The notes beneath the pieces were generated by a model, which was given only the letters and a program-made list of their open reading frames with translations, was not told the origin of the DNA and did no database searches. The position numbers were made by a program, and so were the translations under genes. 64,000 nt of DNA. Source: Microthyrium microscopicum. Lineage: Eukaryota. The DNA is taken from the NCBI GenBank assembly GCA_010405405.1, contig MU004236.1, forward strand, positions 998,070 through 1,062,069, read 5' to 3'. Positions within the stretch are counted from its first letter, which is position 1. The number at the start of each line of letters is the position of its first letter. Positions 12,401 through 19,876 of this stretch are shown here, piece by piece.

Positions 12401-14261
12401 TTCCCTCTCTCCTCTTCTCTATCTCAACAGGAAGCTTGCTCTACAATTTTACGTATGGTGGGCGGGACAGTCGCCTTTCATGCACGCCGCTCCATCAGGC
12501 AAAGTTATCTCGTGGAACAACGGCCATCCCGATCCTTGGAGGCGCGCGTTTACCAAACGGCTCTCTGATTACATCGCATGCGGTTGGAAATAGTGTGGCT
12601 AGTGGTTGCCATCCAGTTAACCCAAATTGACGACTTGCAGGCTGGAAAATCAGTATTACTGGCCTTAAAACTGATAGAAAAGACCTTTGACCTGCACTAC
12701 AATCCTTTTTTTGGCGGTAAACAGTCAATGACAGTAGCTATCTCTGCCTGGGACAAATTGCTCAGTCTATCTTGAGCATCGTGCAGATGGTTGCATCCAC
12801 AAGCCCCTTTTATCATTCCTTCAGCAACTTGGGAGTGGTATGATTATTTACACGCTTTCCACGAGTCGAGCATAGCTAATCTAAGAAGCCAATCTGTATG
12901 GTAAGCTGCGGGCCATTCAGTAGGCGAAATGACCGAGTCTTCCAAGTGCTGTCTGCTGACACCAAAGCGAAAAATGTTAATTCTACATGATCAATCGGCT
13001 CGTTCTACACTGCATCGTAGTCGAACTTTGGTCATAGCCACGATTATCTAGGACATTCTGAAAGTCTACGTTTCCTCCAATTAAAAAACTTCAGGCATAG
13101 CAAGTGTGCCTATGAGCACATCTTTTGCTAGCAGTATTCTTAAGGGCGTTGCATATCCCACGCTCAAGAAACAGCCCAGAGGATTGAGCGAGTCACTGAG
13201 AATCGTGTTATTATTACCAATGCTCATAAGTACCCGATTCGCTAATGAGTTGCATATTCAGCCAAGCATCCAGCAAGCGCTTCATTGTTTCCTTTCTTTT
13301 TTCTTGACCCGATAAGGCTGAAACCATGATTGGGTCTGCCAAAGCATCGCCGACTTGAAAGGCAGATCCTTCCCATTAGCTGCAGTATCTGAATTATTGA
13401 TTTGCAGGTGATACCTTCGGTATCCATAGACTCCAAGTCTCAGCCTTTTCGTCTATTCTGGTCAAAGCTGGTACCCGACAAAGTCAATGAAATGACAATT
13501 GCACAACGTATGCGAGATGGCTGGTAACGTGTCACCAATTCGATCTTCGTACTCTTGTCAACTTCGCTAATTTGACTGAAAGTGCTTCTGTTCCTGACTG
13601 GTCCTATTCGGGTAATATCCGCCGAAGGAAAACTCGTGTTGATCGAGAGTGCAATAACTCTCAACTTGTAGGTGACGCAAGACGACATCTGCCTGATGAC
13701 CTCTTATAAGTATATCATCTAAGTTAGGTATGCTTAGTTCACAATACCCTACCGAAGGAGATATGTAAAGAAATCAACACCTCGGAGATTCTGTAAACCG
13801 ACATGGCCCGTTCTGACAAGATAGTATCGTACTCCAGATCTCACAGTGGTTGTCTCGTTCTCTACTGAAGCAACTGTAAAAGATAGGTACAGAGTCCACT
13901 AAAGCAGTGTTCGAGAACCAGCGAGATCTAAGTAGACCGGTAGTTACCGTACAATAGGTCGACAAAATAGATGGCACGTTCCCATCGAGTGCGAGATCTA
14001 CCTTCGTACCGCAAAGAAGAGCCTACTCTATGATTACCATCGTATTCAATATTCTACAGCCTTTTCTGTGGGCTCTGCGGCAAGTAAAGCGGCCGATAAC
14101 AGAACGTACCGCACAGGAGCCAACGAATCTGAAGGGGTAAACCACTTTTTGTAGGTATGAAGAAATGTGTTTATTACGTTACTAGGTTACTAGGAATTTG
14201 TAGGTCAGGTTAAGTAGGTAGGTACTAGGAAAGTGTTCGAAGCTTCTCCCTCACTCAAGTC

Positions 14262-17164
14262 TCACGCTGTAGATGTGCCATTGATAGTTGACATACCCTG
14301 TACCAGGGCTCCTTCGGTGACAAGAAGACCGGCAATTGAAGCAGATGTCAAAGTCGAGATAATGCCGGTTAGAAGTGCACTGACTGCGAGCCGTGAAACG
14401 TCGCCGCTGCGTCCAGGTGCAATCTGGGACAGCACTCCAATCTGGGTTCCAAGGCTGCCCAGGTTGCCAAACCCGCAGAGAGAGTACGTTGCGATGATCC
14501 TGGATCGTGGACTGAGTGATGCGTACAGAGGATTCTGCTGCAGTTGTGTGTATGCCACGAACTCGTTCTCTACGACTTTGATGCCAATCAACCTTGCGAC
14601 CTTCAACAGATCCCCATTCTGGCGAGGCACTCCCAGCAAGAAGGCTAGGGGATAGAAGAGGTAGCCCAGAATGAGTTCCAGAGTCAAGTCGTAATCTCCA
14701 GAAAGGTTTATATAATGGCCGAACCAGGTCAGTAGGCCATCGATTAGTCCGACCAAAGCGATGATGCAGAGTAAAGTGGCAAGAATCATGCCAGCGATCT
14801 TCAAACCGAGCCAAGCGCCTAAAGATTGTTAGCAAATATTACGATAAAGGAGCCAAAAACCCAGTAAATTAGCAGATTTCTCTTCCCGAAGTGACAACCG
14901 ATGAAATGCCATGGGCACCATCGAGTACGATGGGCGCGATCGAATGCAATGGGGCTCATCAGATATGAGAAGAATATCTCGTCAGAGCCAAAATGCTCTT
15001 GAAATCGCACGATTTCGAGATTTCTTGAATCTCTTATCGCACCTTGTGGGAACCATCGAGTGCGATGGGAGTCATAGAATGCGATGGGGCTCATTGAATG
15101 TGATATGAATATCTCGCCAGAGCCAAAAATCTCGTGAAATCGCATGATTTCAAGATTTCTTAGATTCCTGATCGCAGCTTGTGGGAACCGTCGAGTGCGA
15201 TGGGAGCCATAGAATGCGATGAGGCTCATCAGATGGGAGATGAATATCTTGTCAGAGCCAAAAATCTCGTGAAATCGCGAAATTTCGAGATTTTCTGGAT
15301 TTCTGATCGCATCTTGTGGCAACCATCGAGTGCGATGGGAGCCAATGAATGCGATGGGAGCCATCAAGTGTTTTGGGGATTTGGGTTTGGATAAGAAAAT
15401 GGGTGCTTACCGTTGGCAAAAGCGTGCAAACCGTTGCTGGCTTTGTCGTCATCTTTCGGTACAGTGACGTTTCCAGCTGTCAACGTCTCTTCCGTCTCTG
15501 GATATCGCAGTTTTGAAACTGCGAGCGAGGCTGGAATTGACATTACGCTATTTTTGTCAGTGTTTAACAGGTGCGATGCTGGCCATCAAAGCTGCTCTCG
15601 ACACTTACCAGCTCGAAATCAGGACCTGGCCACTGACACCTAGATTGATATATGCCACGAGTACGCTTCCGGCAATTGTCGCGAATCCCGAGGCCATAAT
15701 TTGGTGGATTTCAGCTTTAGTGAGATGTTGAACAAACGGCTTGATCAGCATTGCTGATTCTCCTTGACCGATGAATGGAGATGCTGCGGCTACCACGGCT
15801 TCTGCGCCTGAGACTCGCATACTCCAGAAGAAGAAAACCGCAAATTTGCCGATAAACCATTGGAGTATTCCCCTATTGGCTGAGATTAGACACATCTCTC
15901 AGGTGAGTAAAATAAATGGCATGCTCCCATCGACTTCGATGGCTACCACCACACTTTCTAAATAGAAGATGCTGTGGCTCCCATGCACTTGTTTAAGCAT
16001 ACGATGGGAGCCAACGCCATCGATAATAAAGCGTAGTCGATGGCAGCCATCGAAGCTGATGGCAGTGGGAGTGTTTAGACATACCAGTAGTAAAACAGTT
16101 GAACCAATGCCACGAAGAACACTATGGCAGGCAAAACTGATGACAAAAACCAATGGAGATCCGGGACTTTGTCGCTGGTAAGGAAAACTACACCTTTGTT
16201 TGCAAATCCAAGCAATGAACGGCATAATTCCGAGATAAAATTGAAAATGTCGAATCCAGCTTTAGTGCGAAGTACGAATAAGGCAACCAAAAACTGGACC
16301 AACATTCCCATGATTACTGTATGCCATCGGATTGCTTTCCGATTCCGGGAGGTTGCTGTTAGCCCTGCCAAAAACACTGCCAAACCGAAGAGGCTGACTG
16401 CCCGATTTGCACGGGTGTTGTCGAGTGCTTCCGGACTCGCCATAGCGCCGACTACGATCACGATAATCGTGATTAGAGCAGCGATGGGTAGTCTTGCTTT
16501 TTCAGGAAGGAGGTCTCGAATTCGCACGGCGCTTTGCTTCCAGATCCAGCGCAGGACGCGCATCAATGGCGTAACGGGAACATAGAAGGTGAGGATGCGA
16601 AGGCAAACGCATAACCAGAGTAGAAGTGGGACCCGCCAATTCAGGTCGTGTCTGTGTAACACTAAGCCAGTGATCCACCACCTATATATTCAATATTAGC
16701 AAGAAACTCTCGAAAATGGCAATAGTTGGAATCAGCAAAATAAACGACATGTTCCCATCAACGCCGATGGCTGATAGCAGACCTTCTCGATAGTAGATGT
16801 TATGTCTCCCATCGTATCTGAACAGCCGTAAAGAATTGAATGCCTCCATCGAGGAAGCTCTCGTAACGGATGGAAATCATTCAAAGTTGATGGCAAACAT
16901 CGTTGTTGATGGGAGCGGGCCAGTTTTTGAGGATTGAACATACCCGGTAAATAACAAGACAATGACAACGTGAAGCAATATCTTTGGCCACTTGCTGCGG
17001 AATTTCTGGTGCTCAATCACTGGTTCCTCATTGCTGCTATGAGACGGGGGTGCTTCGACGGTGTGTAATTGTTGAACTTTCTCATTGACTTGCGAAGGCT
17101 GGGTTGGGTTGGACAGGACATTGGCGTTTCTTCGTGAGGACTCTGCTTCGGCCAAGGGCTCCAT
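14262..17164 (-). CDS. Concentrative nucleoside transporter (CNT/SLC28 family); 5 exons (17164-16944, 16681-16085, 15872-15609, 15547-15411, 14818-14262)
   Basis: [105 protein letters not shown]. Four GT-AG introns join in frame. Confidence 0.93.
14912..15370. repeat. Intronic tandem array, 135-bp unit x ~3.3, inside CNT intron 4 (14819-15410)
   Basis: Units start at 14912, 15047, 15182 and 15317 (tggg(c/a)accatcgagtgcgatggg...). Each contains CCATCG-N4-CGATGG and GAAATCG..CGATTTC palindromes. Confidence 0.92.
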
Positions 17165-18407
17165 AGTGATGTGTTGCGTCCAGAACTTGAATGATGTGCG
17201 TGAAGTGCGAGTATGAATGATAAGTCGGAAGCGTGAGGTTGGATGATGTATCTGATGCGTGAGGTATACAGCTTTCGAGAATCGCGGACTTGAAGTTGTA
17301 TTGGTGTCACCTTGCACAGAGAGGCGAATTTTCGCAGGAGCAGCTGGCCTTTTCTAGTGAGTTGGCAAGGGAGCCAGCTACGTAGGTACTTAGGCAAGAG
17401 TGTGCGGAAGGTATTATTGAGTAGAACCGTGGTTGAACTCCATTTCGTGGTTAGTGGTTACCACGACGCCTAGGTCCCAAAGTGGGCAACACAGTGTGTT
17501 TTGACATCCAACCACTTCGCTGGCTGGGCATCGCCTTCTGTGAAGTTAGAATCGTTGCCTGCCCATCACACTTGATAAAATGAAGCCAGTTTAACGACGT
17601 CGATGGGTAGGAGCATACTCGATAACCAAGCATAGTATGTGGCAGCCGGCGAGGTCGATGGGAGCATGGCCGGTTTCTGTTATTGAGCTGCCTTTGACAA
17701 TTGGACACTGAGTATAGTTGAATTCGACAGCTGATCGTTTTCAATTGACGTGAAAGTTAAATATATCGTCTAAGTTTGTTCTTTTCATTTGGAAAGATGT
17801 TCTCTCCAGTGTCTGGAGGATCAAACCGTCCACGATGAAGTACCTTGGGTGGGTACACATCGACCGCATGAATAGTTGTTTTGAAGTTTCGACGTACAAA
17901 GGGTGATACTATCGTCTGCTTTTGAGACGAGTAGTCAAGTAACCTATCTGACATGTATCGTGTGGTCGATCGGCTCCAAAGCTTTCGATATCTGGTGTTC
18001 GTTTTGGCTCTACACCCGTGCCGGTTGAAGAACGACTTGAAAATTCGAGTGTCCTTGTTCTTTGAACCGATACTTCTTCAGCAAGCTGTAGCACCATGCG
18101 AGCATATGGTCTCCAGACCACTCCCTTGGATATTGTAGAGTTCACCAGGGATATGATCACAGTTACCGACCATAATAGCCGTGACCATTTCGAACAGTTA
18201 CCAGCGAGGAGGTTTATTATATACAGCTCTCTAATTGGGTGGCAGTCGGCTTAGTCTAACCCTATTAAATAGCATTGTTCTTGAAAATGAGCGAAACCGG
18301 CTAAACCGATACATTAGCCGGGCGACCTATATTACCCTTGTAGGTGAAGTTATGGTACAATGTGGGAGTGTTGAAACTGCTTAAACCATTACAACACAAT
18401 AGTTCCG

Positions 18408-19876
18408 ATGGCAGAAGTTATTCATCCAGGCTGGAATATCGACAATAGTGCGGCTGTTGTAAGCGATGATCCCGAGAAAATATACAAAGAGTGGGATTAC
18501 ATGCGCTCGCAATGTCCTGTTGCTCACGTCAATCGTCATGATGGCTACTGGATATTGACCAAGTAGGTTCACTATATCGAGATATTGAAAAGTTGACTGA
18601 TTTTTGCAGACATGAAGATATCAAGAACTGCGCTCTGGATTCCGATACTTTCATTTCTTCAGTGTGTGCCATCGTACCTTCAGACCCGCGAGGAATCCGT
18701 CGTCCACCCCTGAAATTCGATGGCAAAGATCATACTCCTTACCGAACTGCGTTGGATCGGACACTGAAAGCTTCGAGATTGAAGCGACTAGAGCCAGTGC
18801 TTCAAAAACATTGCGACGATGAATTGCAACCACTTCTCGACAGAGGTGAAGGCGACATTTGCCAGGAGTTTGCATCGAATTTCTGCGGATGGGTTGAAAG
18901 TGTCTGGTTGAATTTGGATCCTAAGAACGGAAAGATGTTGGCAGATAGTGTGAACCCCTTCGTACAGTCTTGGAGAACTGGTGATTGGGACGGAGTAAAA
19001 CGTGGATCCGAGGCATTCTATGTCATTGCAAGAGATGTTATTGCAGATCGTCAAAAAGCATTGCGCGACCCAGAGGAAGATCCAGCATCAAGTCTGATAT
19101 TAGAAAGAGACTCTGAAGGCAAGCCTCTAGACGAGTTCCATCTTGTGTAAGCAACAATATTTGGCTCCATGTCTGTGGGAATGACAGCTGACAATCACAG
19201 GGGATGTATTCGGCAAAGCCTGATCGTTTCCATGGTGGCTCCCCCAATCTTGATCTCCGCCATGACGAATCATTTGTCTAAGGACAAAGAGTTACAGAAC
19301 CAGCTGCGCAACAATCCAGAACTGCAAAATGCCGCGATCGAAGAGTTTGTGCGGCTGTATACCCCATACAGGGGATTTGCTCGCACGGCTACTCATGATG
19401 TTGAGATTTCGGGACAGGCAATCCCACAAGACGAGCCCATGACCATGACTTACGCGGCAGGTAATCGAGACCCCTCGGTTTTCTCTGAGCCAGACAAGTT
19501 TATCCTTAATCGCCCAAATATAACAGCTCACCTGGGCTTTGGAAAAGGCCGACATCGGTGTGCCGGCATGCCGTTGGCGCGGATGATCCTGAAAGTGTTT
19601 TTGAGAACGATATTGGAGAAAACTACGGATTGGGATGTGAACAGTAATGCCTTGCATTACGCTCGCCTACCCGAAATGTGAGTCAATGGTGTAATGTTAT
19701 CGTCCCTTGATCATTGATGATTGCTTGAATGACTTTCCATCCAAATTGGGGGAATTCGTGTCTCAAGCGTTCAGCAAATGTTGACAAATATTACAATTGC
19801 TCTGATGATCTTACACTGACATATTACCAGCGGTATAATCGGTTGCCCAACCAAATTTCACACCAAGATGGCCTGA
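18408..19876 (+). CDS. Cytochrome P450, soluble bacterial-like (~404 aa); 4 exons (18408-18562, 18610-19146, 19201-19677, 19831-19876)
   Basis: MRSQCPVAH..GYWILTK/HEDI, DGKDHTPYR, ExxR (EEFVR), AAGNRDPSVFSEPDKF, heme motif HLGFGKGRHRCAG. No N-terminal membrane anchor. Exon sum is 1215 nt, in frame. Confidence 0.9.

What the first reader, a model, noticed from the sequence alone, without database searches (positions are those of the whole stretch)
13964..17670. A palindromic micro-element (CCATCG-N4-CGATGG) colonises the promoter, three introns and 3' flank of one CNT gene
Seen: a ~30-35-bp motif AAATA(A/G)A(T/C)G(G/A)CA(T/C)G(C/T)TCCCATC(G/A)A.... occurs downstream of the gene (13964-13993), in intron 2 (15909-15944) and in intron 1 (16737-16772). 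A shorter inverted copy lies in the promoter (17651-17670; 18/20 match to the intron-2 copy). The same CCATC...GATGG core recurs several more times in introns 1 and 2 and builds the intron-4 array. Exactly these three introns are enlarged (262, 212, 592 nt), versus 61 nt for motif-free intron 3 and mostly ~50-75 nt for introns elsewhere in the window. In introns 1 and 2 the motif sits just upstream of the branch point. I did not notice the motif elsewhere in the window, and it avoids exons. Inference: either an undescribed tiny mobile or locally propagating element (REP-like or introner-associated) tolerated only in non-coding parts, or a multi-site cis-regulatory system (dimeric protein site or pre-mRNA hairpins controlling splicing of a nucleoside transporter).
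Basis: partly seen in the sequence, partly recalled or inferred. Interest (0 to 1): 0.8.

Follow-up and report, generated by a model that had tools for sequence, protein, structure and literature searches.

The report
Hairpin repeat family filling new fungal introns
The small palindrome is real, but it is one piece of a larger hairpin-forming repeat scattered through this fungus's genome, which fills three introns of a nucleoside-transporter gene and probably created two of them.

Summary
CCATCG-N4-CGATGG (up to 2 mismatches) occurs 16 times in the window against 1.18 expected. Thirteen of these lie in introns 1, 2 and 4 and the 5' region of one CNT gene, and none in its exons.

The protein is identical over exon 2 (198 aa) to a Microthyrium microscopicum (Dothideomycetes) entry of the same 591 aa. 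An RNA contig splices out all four predicted introns.

The palindrome is a sub-motif of a foldback element of about 150-190 bp. Intron 2 is a 143-nt imperfect palindrome (-82 kcal/mol, z -7.0). Introns 1 and 2 match at 60 of 79 bases.

The family is dispersed: 42-45 other contigs of the same organism carry 46-74-nt matches.

In 80 of 80 orthologous loci there is no intron at the positions of introns 2, 3 and 4. Intron 1 sits at a conserved position, where relatives have 49-194 nt against 262 here.

Best reading (0.55): a degenerate introner-like foldback repeat that created introns 2 and 4 and enlarged intron 1. Main rival: a MITE-like repeat that landed in introns already present. A gene-specific regulatory system is not supported.

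Two published introner surveys list this species with zero. Verdict: new member of a known kind, moderate interest.

The parts
14262..17164 (-). CNT (H+/nucleoside cotransporter) gene: ATG at 17164, stop at 14262-14264, 5 exons, 591 aa.
   Evidence: Splice model. Exon 2 (198 aa) is 100% identical to P0001, which is also 591 aa. Pfam PF01773, PF07670 and PF07662. An RNA contig joins all exons.
16682..16943 (-). Intron 1, 262 nt, phase 2 in codon 74. It stands at an ancestral position and is enlarged by a foldback copy: an inverted arm at 16889-16925 and a 3' module at 16731-16777.
   Evidence: Spliced. Same position and phase in orthologues: 10 read-through introns, plus an AG acceptor in 41 of 41 loci whose match starts at residue 70-76. 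Orthologue length 49-194 nt, median 77. nhmmer hits. Fold -71.3 kcal/mol, z -2.83.
15873..16084 (-). Intron 2, 212 nt, phase 2 in codon 273. It is lineage-specific. Intron nt 19-161 form a 143-nt imperfect palindrome, followed by the GAGCATGCCATTTATTTT tail. The foldback covers roughly 15906-16066.
   Evidence: Spliced. No intron here in 80 of 80 orthologous loci. Fold -82.2 kcal/mol, z -7.0, 0 of 200 shuffles as stable. Against its own reverse complement: score 54 versus 16.9 +/- 2.3. 60 of 79 identical to intron 1.
15548..15608 (-). Intron 3, 61 nt, phase 2 in codon 361. It is lineage-specific and ordinary in size, with only a weak match to the family (TTGATGGCCAGCATCG).
   Evidence: Spliced. 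No intron here in 80 of 80 loci. Match to intron 2: score 22 against 14.2 +/- 2.0, 0 of 300 shuffles. Match to intron 4: 3 of 300 shuffles. Fold z -1.57.
14819..15410 (-). Intron 4, 592 nt, phase 1 in codon 407. It is lineage-specific. Family arms lie at both ends, and the core is expanded into a tandem array.
   Evidence: Spliced. No intron here in 80 of 80 loci. Fold -175.7 kcal/mol, z -4.27. Against its own reverse complement: score 34 versus 21.9 +/- 2.7, 0 of 300 shuffles. 3' module at 14892-14941.
14912..15366 (.). 135-bp tandem repeat, 3.4 copies, inside intron 4. Each unit carries two palindromes 19 bp apart.
   Evidence: Tandem Repeats Finder: 83% matches, score 619. Palindrome positions. 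At least one other genomic contig shares 15024-15070 with 5 differences (table 8).
13956..14005 (-). Module copy in the 3' flank, in the same orientation as the intron copies. By eye it runs colinear with intron 1 to about 14050.
   Evidence: nhmmer E 1.8e-10, though this copy was in the training set. 31 of 39 identical to intron 2. It lies beyond the 3' end of the gene's RNA contig (14152) but inside a low-depth RNA contig covering 13800-14086.
17587..17689 (+). Two module copies in the 5' intergenic region (17587-17631 and 17640-17689), inverted relative to the intron copies. Read on the gene's strand they are colinear with the left arm of intron 2.
   Evidence: nhmmer E 2.3e-4 and 8.5e-9, both in the training set. 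26 of 30 identical to the intron 2 module, and 34 of 46 to the intron 2 left arm. The region is covered by the RNA contig.

Best explanation
The CCATCG-N4-CGATGG palindrome is a sub-motif of a short, non-coding, hairpin-forming (foldback) repeat of about 150-190 bp. Tens of copies are dispersed through the genome of this Dothideomycete fungus.

In the CNT gene the family behaves as an introner-like element.
- Copies make up most of introns 2 and 4. Both are new introns of this lineage, and I infer that family members created them by seamless insertion into formerly continuous exons.
- One copy was added to the old intron 1 and enlarged it about four-fold.
- Partial copies sit in both flanks.
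- Intron 3 may be a decayed member.
- The 135-bp array in intron 4 is a later local tandem expansion.

The elements need no function for the gene. They persist only where splicing or a non-coding position makes them harmless.

Shown here: the clustering, the foldback structure, the homology between introns 1 and 2, the dispersed copies, the splicing, and the presence or absence of each intron position in orthologues.

Inferred: that the element caused the gain of introns 2 and 4, and how it moves. The absence of target-site duplications favours the seamless route proposed for fungal introner-like elements, which is reverse-splicing-like or otherwise TSD-free.

Odds: about 0.85 that this is a dispersed repeat family rather than a gene-specific system, and about 0.55 for the full statement including intron creation.
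For: Clustering and structure
- 16 palindromes against 1.18 expected, 13 of them in this gene's non-coding parts.
- Intron 2 folds as one long hairpin: -82.2 kcal/mol, z -7.0. It matches its own reverse complement over nt 19-161.
- Intron 4 z -4.27 and intron 1 z -2.83.
- Introns 1 and 2: 60 of 79 identical, score 63 against 17.3 +/- 2.3, 0 of 300 shuffles.

Dispersed family
- Laid at 80% likeness, two DNA runs of the source organism gave 50 and 46 contigs. Of these, 45 and 42 lay only partly on the stretch.
- The partial contigs include long contigs at single-copy depth that match 15909-15984, 15323-15374 and 15024-15070.
- Eleven to 12 contigs share a sharp common end at 15909.

Splicing
- One RNA contig joins out all four introns exactly.

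Intron gain
- The positions of introns 2, 3 and 4 are spanned without a gap in 80 of 80 orthologous loci.
- 54 of those 80 loci show introns elsewhere in the gene, so they are genomic DNA.

Intron 1
- It stands at a conserved position, where orthologues have 49-194 nt (median 77, n = 35) against 262 nt here.

Other points
- No direct repeat longer than G|G spans the junctions of introns 2, 3 and 4 (read).
- Long, strongly folding introns at gain positions, and several per gene, are described for fungal introner-like elements (PMC3609843 parts 1-2; PMC4457414 abstract and introduction). They are also described for the symmetrical introns of Hypoxylaceae (PMC8469720 sections 14 and 17).
- An unusual number of new introns and an unusual density of the repeat coincide in the same gene, which argues for a causal link (inference).
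Against: - The stretches that carry the branch point and 3' splice site are not similar between introns 1, 2 and 4: 805, 470 and 85 of 1000 shuffles reach the observed scores. The whole intron is therefore not shown to be the repeated unit.
- Intron 1 shows that the element can enter an intron that already exists. Introns 2 and 4 could likewise have existed first.
- Copies lie outside introns: in the 3' flank, in the 5' region, and in the RNA run. There, 27 of 29 laid contigs are other loci carrying the element, and two copies sit inside long contigs of depth 138 and 345. Many copies are therefore not spliced out.
- Copies are only 76-89% alike over 46-79 nt, not near-identical.
- Two published genome-wide introner surveys list this species with zero introners.
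- The closest orthologous loci are only 71-77% identical in protein, so the time of the intron gains is unknown.
- I could not see whether the other copies are introns of other genes, because no genome was held.
Confidence: 0.55

Rival explanations
1. A MITE-like or foldback DNA repeat landed secondarily in non-coding DNA. Introns 2, 3 and 4 were gained earlier by some other route as ordinary short introns. The repeat then inserted into three of the four introns and into both flanks, as it does in UTRs elsewhere.
For: - Intron 1 is an old intron that now holds a copy.
- Copies lie in the flanks and in unspliced RNA contigs of other loci.
- There are long inverted arms.
- The branch-point and 3' splice-site tails are not homologous.
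- Intron 3 is a new intron without a clear copy.
- The literature separates 'repetitive elements that inserted within regular introns' from introner-like elements (PMC3609843 part 1).
- Published surveys list zero introners for the species.
Against: - I found no target-site duplication around the foldback in introns 1 or 2, nor at the intron junctions (read).
- Without the foldback, intron 2 would be only about 43 nt (7-nt leader plus 36-nt tail). That is below the smallest orthologue intron 1 that I measured (49 nt).
- It requires three unrelated intron gains plus five or six separate insertions in one 3.7-kb gene, for a family seen at only tens of loci.
Confidence: 0.27
2. Spread within the gene. 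The old intron 1 acquired the repeat and was then copied into new positions of the same transcript or gene, as in same-gene intron duplication. That would give introns 2 and 4, and perhaps 3.
For: - It explains why the copies cluster in one gene.
- Introns 1 and 2 are homologous over 79 nt.
- The asymmetric tail points the same way in all three introns.
- Same-gene duplications are a described class (PMC3609843 part 2).
Against: - Intron 2 is at least as close to copies on other contigs (6 differences in 46, 10 in 59, 13 in 74) as it is to intron 1 (19 in 79).
- Leaders and tails are not similar.
- It does not explain the flank copies.
Confidence: 0.1
3. A cis-regulatory or RNA-structure system of the transporter gene. 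The palindromes would be binding sites for a dimeric protein, or pre-mRNA hairpins that control splicing or expression.
For: - Stems are better conserved than the 4-nt loops across copies. The loops read AGTG, AATG, ACTT, AAGC, ACGC, TTGT and AGGT.
- Sites lie in the 5' region, the introns and the 3' flank of a single gene.
Against: - Similarity between copies runs over 46-79 nt, including non-palindromic parts.
- Tens of other loci carry it.
- None of the 13 palindromes shows a compensatory double change, and imperfect ones are simply broken.
- The motif is absent from 80 orthologous loci: 0 exact matches in 291,964 nt.
- Rfam gave only one match, below its gathering score and outside the motif copies.
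- The introns are removed cleanly in the RNA contig, and the one bin that lies wholly inside intron 1 has no RNA cover.
Confidence: 0.05

Closest known systems
Fungal introner-like elements (ILEs) of Dothideomycetes (van der Burgt 2012, recalled via citations; Collemare 2013, PMC3609843; Collemare 2015, PMC4457414)
   Same: - Same fungal class.
- Canonical spliceosomal introns.
- Much longer than regular introns.
- Strongly stable predicted folds.
- Located at positions that are intron-free in relatives.
- Inserted seamlessly, without target-site duplication.
- Several can occur in one gene.
- Expected to decay towards ordinary introns, and intron 3 may be such a remnant.
   Different: - The copies here are only about 76-89% alike, not near-identical.
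- The shared part stops short of the branch point and 3' splice site.
- Copies also lie outside introns and persist in RNA contigs.
- One copy sits in an old intron.
- One copy carries a 135-bp tandem expansion.
- Published surveys list zero introners for this species.
Internally symmetrical sister (stw)introns of Hypoxylaceae (Fekete 2021, PMC8469720)
   Same: - Long terminal inverted repeats that make the intron a hairpin.
- No target-site duplication.
- Seamless integration at new positions.
- Tens of copies rather than hundreds.
- Some genes have two copies.
- Symmetry decays in older copies.
- No Rfam match.
   Different: - A different fungal class (Sordariomycetes).
- I saw no nested (stwintron) donor here.
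- The core palindrome is different: theirs is WTTCTAGAAA.
- Sequence relatedness was not tested, because I held none of their sequences.
- Their copies are reported within coding regions, whereas here some are in flanks.
MITE-type introners: DNA-transposon-derived introns (Huff 2016 as cited; Gozashti 2022, PMC9860276; review PMC11282704)
   Same: - Short and non-autonomous.
- Inverted terminal arms.
- Found both inside and outside genes.
- Able to become introns.
   Different: - No target-site duplication at the junctions or around the foldback.
- No splice site supplied by a duplicated target.
- Gozashti 2022 reports that ascomycete introner families have neither TIRs nor TSDs. A TIR-bearing ascomycete family would therefore be atypical.
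Bacterial REP / palindromic extragenic repeats
   Same: Short palindromic units, confined to non-coding sequence and often clustered.
   Different: This is a eukaryotic nuclear genome. The unit is part of a larger foldback, and it lies in spliceosomal introns. There is no relationship.

Membership tests
Fungal introner-like elements (ILEs) | Canonical spliceosomal intron that is actually spliced | tested here: met
   GT..AG borders and an open 591-aa frame. One RNA contig joins out all four introns (tables 5 and 8).
Fungal introner-like elements (ILEs) | Sits at an intron-gain position that is absent in orthologues | tested here: met
   Introns 2 and 4 (and 3): the position is spanned without a gap in 80 of 80 orthologous loci. 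Not met for intron 1, whose position and phase are conserved: 10 read-through introns, an AG acceptor in 41 of 41 loci, and exon 1 found in 35 loci.
Fungal introner-like elements (ILEs) | Many near-identical copies that are introns of unrelated genes | tested here: inconclusive
   42-45 other contigs match 46-74 nt at 80-90%. Whether those copies are introns could not be seen, because no genome was held. At least two copies lie inside long high-depth RNA contigs, so they are not spliced out. Two surveys list zero introners for the species.
Fungal introner-like elements (ILEs) | About twice as long as regular introns | tested here: met
   212, 262 and 592 nt, against 61 nt for intron 3. Orthologue introns have a median of 54 nt (n = 60). 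Orthologue intron 1 has a median of 77 nt (n = 35).
Fungal introner-like elements (ILEs) | Unusually stable predicted secondary structure | tested here: met
   z -7.0 for intron 2, -4.27 for intron 4, -2.83 for intron 1 and -1.57 for intron 3.
Fungal introner-like elements (ILEs) | The whole intron, splice signals included, is the repeated unit | tested here: not met
   Homology covers the foldback and its tail module. The segments that carry the branch point and 3' splice site are no more alike than shuffles: 805, 470 and 85 of 1000. With copies this diverged, the test is weak.
MITE / DNA-transposon-type introners | Terminal inverted repeats | tested here: met
   Intron 2 nt 19-161 pair with their own reverse complement (score 54 against 16.9 +/- 2.3). 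Intron 1 has an inverted arm at 16889-16925. Intron 4 against its own reverse complement: 0 of 300 shuffles reach the score.
MITE / DNA-transposon-type introners | Target-site duplication flanking the insertion | tested here: not met
   By eye, on the sequences: only G|G is shared across the junctions of introns 2 and 4, and no direct repeat flanks the foldback in introns 1 or 2. Old copies could have lost theirs.
MITE / DNA-transposon-type introners | An autonomous partner element with matching ends | not testable with these tools
   No genome was held for this window.
Hypoxylaceae symmetrical sister (stw)introns | Sequence relatedness to that family, and a nested donor-split structure | not tested
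   I held none of their sequences. Only the described features were compared (PMC8469720 sections 14 and 17). I noticed no nested donor.
Concentrative nucleoside transporter (CNT) family (the host gene) | Pfam Nucleos_tra2_N, Gate and Nucleos_tra2_C domains | tested here: met
   PF01773 at 8.1e-24, PF07670 at 6.2e-12 and PF07662 at 1.3e-75, all on P0001.

The most novel reading that the evidence does not exclude
A previously unrecognised foldback element in Microthyriales, with inverted terminal arms but no target-site duplication, does two things. It colonises existing non-coding DNA, and it creates new spliceosomal introns seamlessly.

It also re-inserts preferentially near itself, which would explain five or six copies in one 3.7-kb gene. 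In intron 2 its ends may supply splice signals in either orientation: the left end reads GTATGT, and the right end reads TACTCAC, the complement of GTGAGTA.

Such an element would link the DNA-type MITE introners of algae with the TSD-less introner-like elements of ascomycetes. It would also show that current introner surveys miss low-copy, diverged families.
Probability: 0.2. Interest if true: 0.7.

Novelty: new member of a known kind. Interest (0 to 1): 0.45.

Why it matters
How new spliceosomal introns arise is a long-standing question, and fungal introner-like elements are one of the few observable sources.

This gene shows three stages side by side:
- an old intron enlarged by a hairpin repeat;
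- two new introns built almost wholly of the same repeat;
- one new intron of ordinary size.

The repeat also exists outside introns. That bears on whether such elements move as DNA or through splicing.

The family comes from an order (Microthyriales) in which, as far as my searches show, no introner has been reported. Two large surveys score this species as zero, which suggests that diverged, low-copy families go uncounted.

If the rival reading holds (secondary insertion), the finding is ordinary: a small repeat tolerated in introns.

Tried and rejected
- Whole genome: none is held for this window. A genome-wide count, intron enrichment and strand bias could therefore not be computed. Read laying on contigs served as a partial substitute.
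- Earlier findings of the scan: nothing by place, sequence or words.
- The look-up of sequencing runs listed no RNA holder on record. Run X5 was only a guessed RNA run, but it proved to hold a spliced contig.
- Pfam on exon references failed, because one reference was out of frame. I ran Pfam on P0001 instead.
- Rfam at E up to 1 over 13700-17900 gave one sub-threshold snoRNA match at 17209-17257. It is unrelated to the motif.
- Motif in relatives: 0 exact palindromes in 80 orthologous loci, and a best profile hit of E 0.63 in 291,964 nt.
- Homology of the intron tails (branch point and 3' splice site): not significant.
- Intron 3 as a decayed family member: only weak support. It matches intron 2 (0 of 300 shuffles), intron 4 (3 of 300) and intron 1 (65 of 300).
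- Purely local minisatellite growth is rejected as the whole story, because other contigs carry the sequence. It does explain the 135-bp array.
- The idea that both foldback ends double as a 5' splice site and a branch point fits intron 2 only. It does not fit introns 1 or 4 (read), so I keep it as speculation.
- Literature: two searches on introner-like elements, one on introners in fungi and one on the species name. None turned up a paper describing introners or this repeat in Microthyrium.
- Not done: gene models and intron lengths for the window's other genes.

Full report
**What is there**

The region holds one gene on the minus strand, with its ATG at 17164 and its stop at 14262-14264. 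It has five exons and introns of 262, 212, 61 and 592 nt, and it encodes 591 aa. Exon 2 (198 aa) is 100% identical to a protein of the same length, P0001. Its source names it a hypothetical protein or H+/nucleoside cotransporter of Microthyrium microscopicum. P0001 carries the three Pfam domains of concentrative nucleoside transporters. So the window is from that Dothideomycete fungus or a near-identical strain.

One contig of run X5 joins the exons exactly at all four predicted introns (tables 5 and 8). X5 was only guessed to be an RNA run, but the spliced contig bears that out. The bin that lies wholly inside intron 1 has no cover in X5, so X5 is not noticeably contaminated with DNA.

**The observation**

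The palindrome CCATCG-N4-CGATGG, with up to 2 mismatches, occurs 16 times against 1.18 expected (largest shuffle 4). Thirteen of the 16 lie in introns 1, 2 and 4 and in the 5' region, and none lies in coding sequence. CGATGGG has 10 of its 11 window occurrences in this region.

So is the intron 4 array: period 135, 3.4 copies, 14912-15366. A profile of the module finds nothing else in the 64 kb below E 0.4.

**The real unit is larger**

- Introns 1 and 2 align without gaps at 60 of 79 bases. The score is 63 against 17.3 +/- 2.3 in shuffles, and 0 of 300 shuffles reach it. Weaker similarity continues towards the 5' end.
- Intron 2 folds into a single long hairpin of -82.2 kcal/mol, z -7.0. Its nt 19-161 match their own reverse complement.
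- Intron 1 has an inverted arm at 16889-16925 facing the module at 16731-16777.
- Intron 4 has family arms at both ends and also matches its own reverse complement (0 of 300 shuffles).
- After the right arm comes a conserved, non-palindromic tail, GAGCATGCCATTTATTTT. It points the same way in all three introns and in the 3' flank copy.
- The two 5' copies are inverted. On the gene's strand they are colinear with the left arm of intron 2, at 34 of 46 bases.

The 16-bp palindrome is therefore one stem-loop within a foldback element of about 150-190 bp.

**It is a dispersed family**

No genome is held for this window. I therefore laid contigs of four runs on 13800-17800 at 80% likeness.

- The two DNA runs of the source organism gave 50 and 46 contigs. 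Of these, 45 and 42 lay only partly on the stretch.
- The listed partial contigs are long (3.9-53 kb) and at single-copy depth. They match 15909-15984, 15323-15374 and 15024-15070 with 5-13 differences in 46-74 nt.
- Eleven to 12 contigs end their match at 15909, which marks one end of the shared element.
- Some other loci carry two motif copies 16 or 39-40 nt apart (table 5c).
- In the RNA run, 27 of 29 laid contigs are other loci carrying the element. Two copies lie inside contigs of 3.8 and 6.5 kb at depth 138 and 345. Many copies are therefore transcribed and not spliced out.

**Which introns are old**

I fetched 80 orthologous CNT loci from metagenome contigs and compared them with P0001 by tblastn.

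- The positions of intron 2 (codon 273), intron 3 (codon 361) and intron 4 (codon 407) are spanned without any gap in 80 of 80 loci.
- Of these loci, 54 show introns elsewhere in the gene, mostly near codons 489-521. Their median length is 54 nt (n = 60). These loci are therefore genomic DNA.
- Intron 1 is different. Ten loci have a short read-through intron exactly at codon 74.
- In 41 of 41 loci whose match starts at residue 70-76, an AG acceptor stands in the matching phase.
- In 35 loci I could place exon 1, which gives intron lengths of 49-194 nt (median 77). The closest relatives have 49-59 nt.
- In 26 loci the position is spanned without a gap, so there is no intron there or the contig is cDNA.

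So intron 1 is ancestral and enlarged, while introns 2, 3 and 4 are specific to this lineage. The closest loci are only 71-77% identical, so the gains cannot be dated.

**How it most likely works**

The published description of fungal introner-like elements fits on several counts (PMC3609843 parts 1-2; PMC4457414 abstract and introduction):
- canonical introns;
- about twice the normal length;
- unusually stable folds;
- located at gain positions;
- several per gene;
- decay towards ordinary introns.

The symmetrical introns of Hypoxylaceae add long terminal inverted repeats, seamless insertion without target-site duplication, and tens of copies rather than hundreds (PMC8469720 sections 14 and 17).

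Here I see no direct repeat beyond G|G across the junctions of introns 2 and 4 (read). I therefore infer that family members created introns 2 and 4, that a copy entered the old intron 1, and that the 135-bp array grew later by local duplication.

**What speaks against this**

- The tails that hold the branch point and 3' splice site are not alike.
- Intron 1 proves that insertion into an existing intron happens.
- Copies exist outside introns.
- Copies are diverged, not near-identical.
- Two genome-wide surveys list the species with zero introners (supplements of PMC12130899 and PMC9860276; of the main texts I saw only passages).

The main rival is a MITE-like repeat that landed in introns gained by another route. 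It remains at about 0.27.

Two points count against that rival. Without the foldback, intron 2 would shrink to about 43 nt. And it would be a coincidence for three new introns and five or six repeat copies to fall in one gene, for a family seen at tens of loci.

Copying within the gene is less likely (0.1). Intron 2 is at least as close to copies on other contigs as it is to intron 1.

**The regulatory reading**

Stems are better kept than loops. However:
- no palindrome shows a compensatory change;
- similarity between loci extends well beyond a binding site;
- the motif is absent from all 80 orthologous loci;
- Rfam gave only one match, below its gathering score and unrelated to the motif.

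I give this reading 0.05.

**Still unexplained**

I cannot explain why so many copies sit in and around this one gene.

**Verdict**

This is a new family of a known kind, of moderate interest. The decisive test is a genome-wide map of the family on the public assembly, which I could not run.

Noticed in passing
window 14819-15406, minus strand: One reading frame is free of stops through almost all of intron 4 (195 codons). It is not the frame of exon 4, and the intron is spliced out. The 135-bp period equals 45 codons, so the open frame is probably a by-product of the tandem repeat.
   Followed up: partly
window 18542-19681, plus strand: Two adjoining open frames carry an FGKGRHRCAG stretch that looks like the haem-binding motif of cytochrome P450s (motif recalled, not tested). 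The gene is divergent from the CNT gene, and the same RNA contig runs from the CNT gene about 1.9 kb past 17800. The 'promoter' copies therefore lie in transcribed sequence between two divergent genes.
   Followed up: no
L001-L080 (orthologous CNT loci): Many orthologues have a short intron near codon 489/490 or 521/522. Others have one near 216, 249, 348 or 499. The Microthyrium gene has none of these. Intron positions in this gene family turn over a good deal among fungi.
   Followed up: partly
L020, L043, L059, L061 (intron at codon 74): In these four loci the conserved first intron is 160-194 nt, against 49-93 nt in most others. I did not look at whether other repeats enlarged it there too.
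   Followed up: no
window 14378-17113, run X6: A run of another study and organism label holds short, identical, low-depth contigs of this gene, including part of the intron 4 array (14843-15235, no differences). It also holds a much deeper, diverged CNT contig with 21 differences in 122 nt. The same fungus seems to be a minor member of that sample.
   Followed up: no
window 15055-15360, DNA runs X1 and X3: Other genomic contigs join 15070 to 15317, or place two motif copies 16 or 39-40 nt apart (tables 5 and 5c). Other loci therefore carry single-unit or differently spaced versions of what is a 3.4-copy array here.
   Followed up: no
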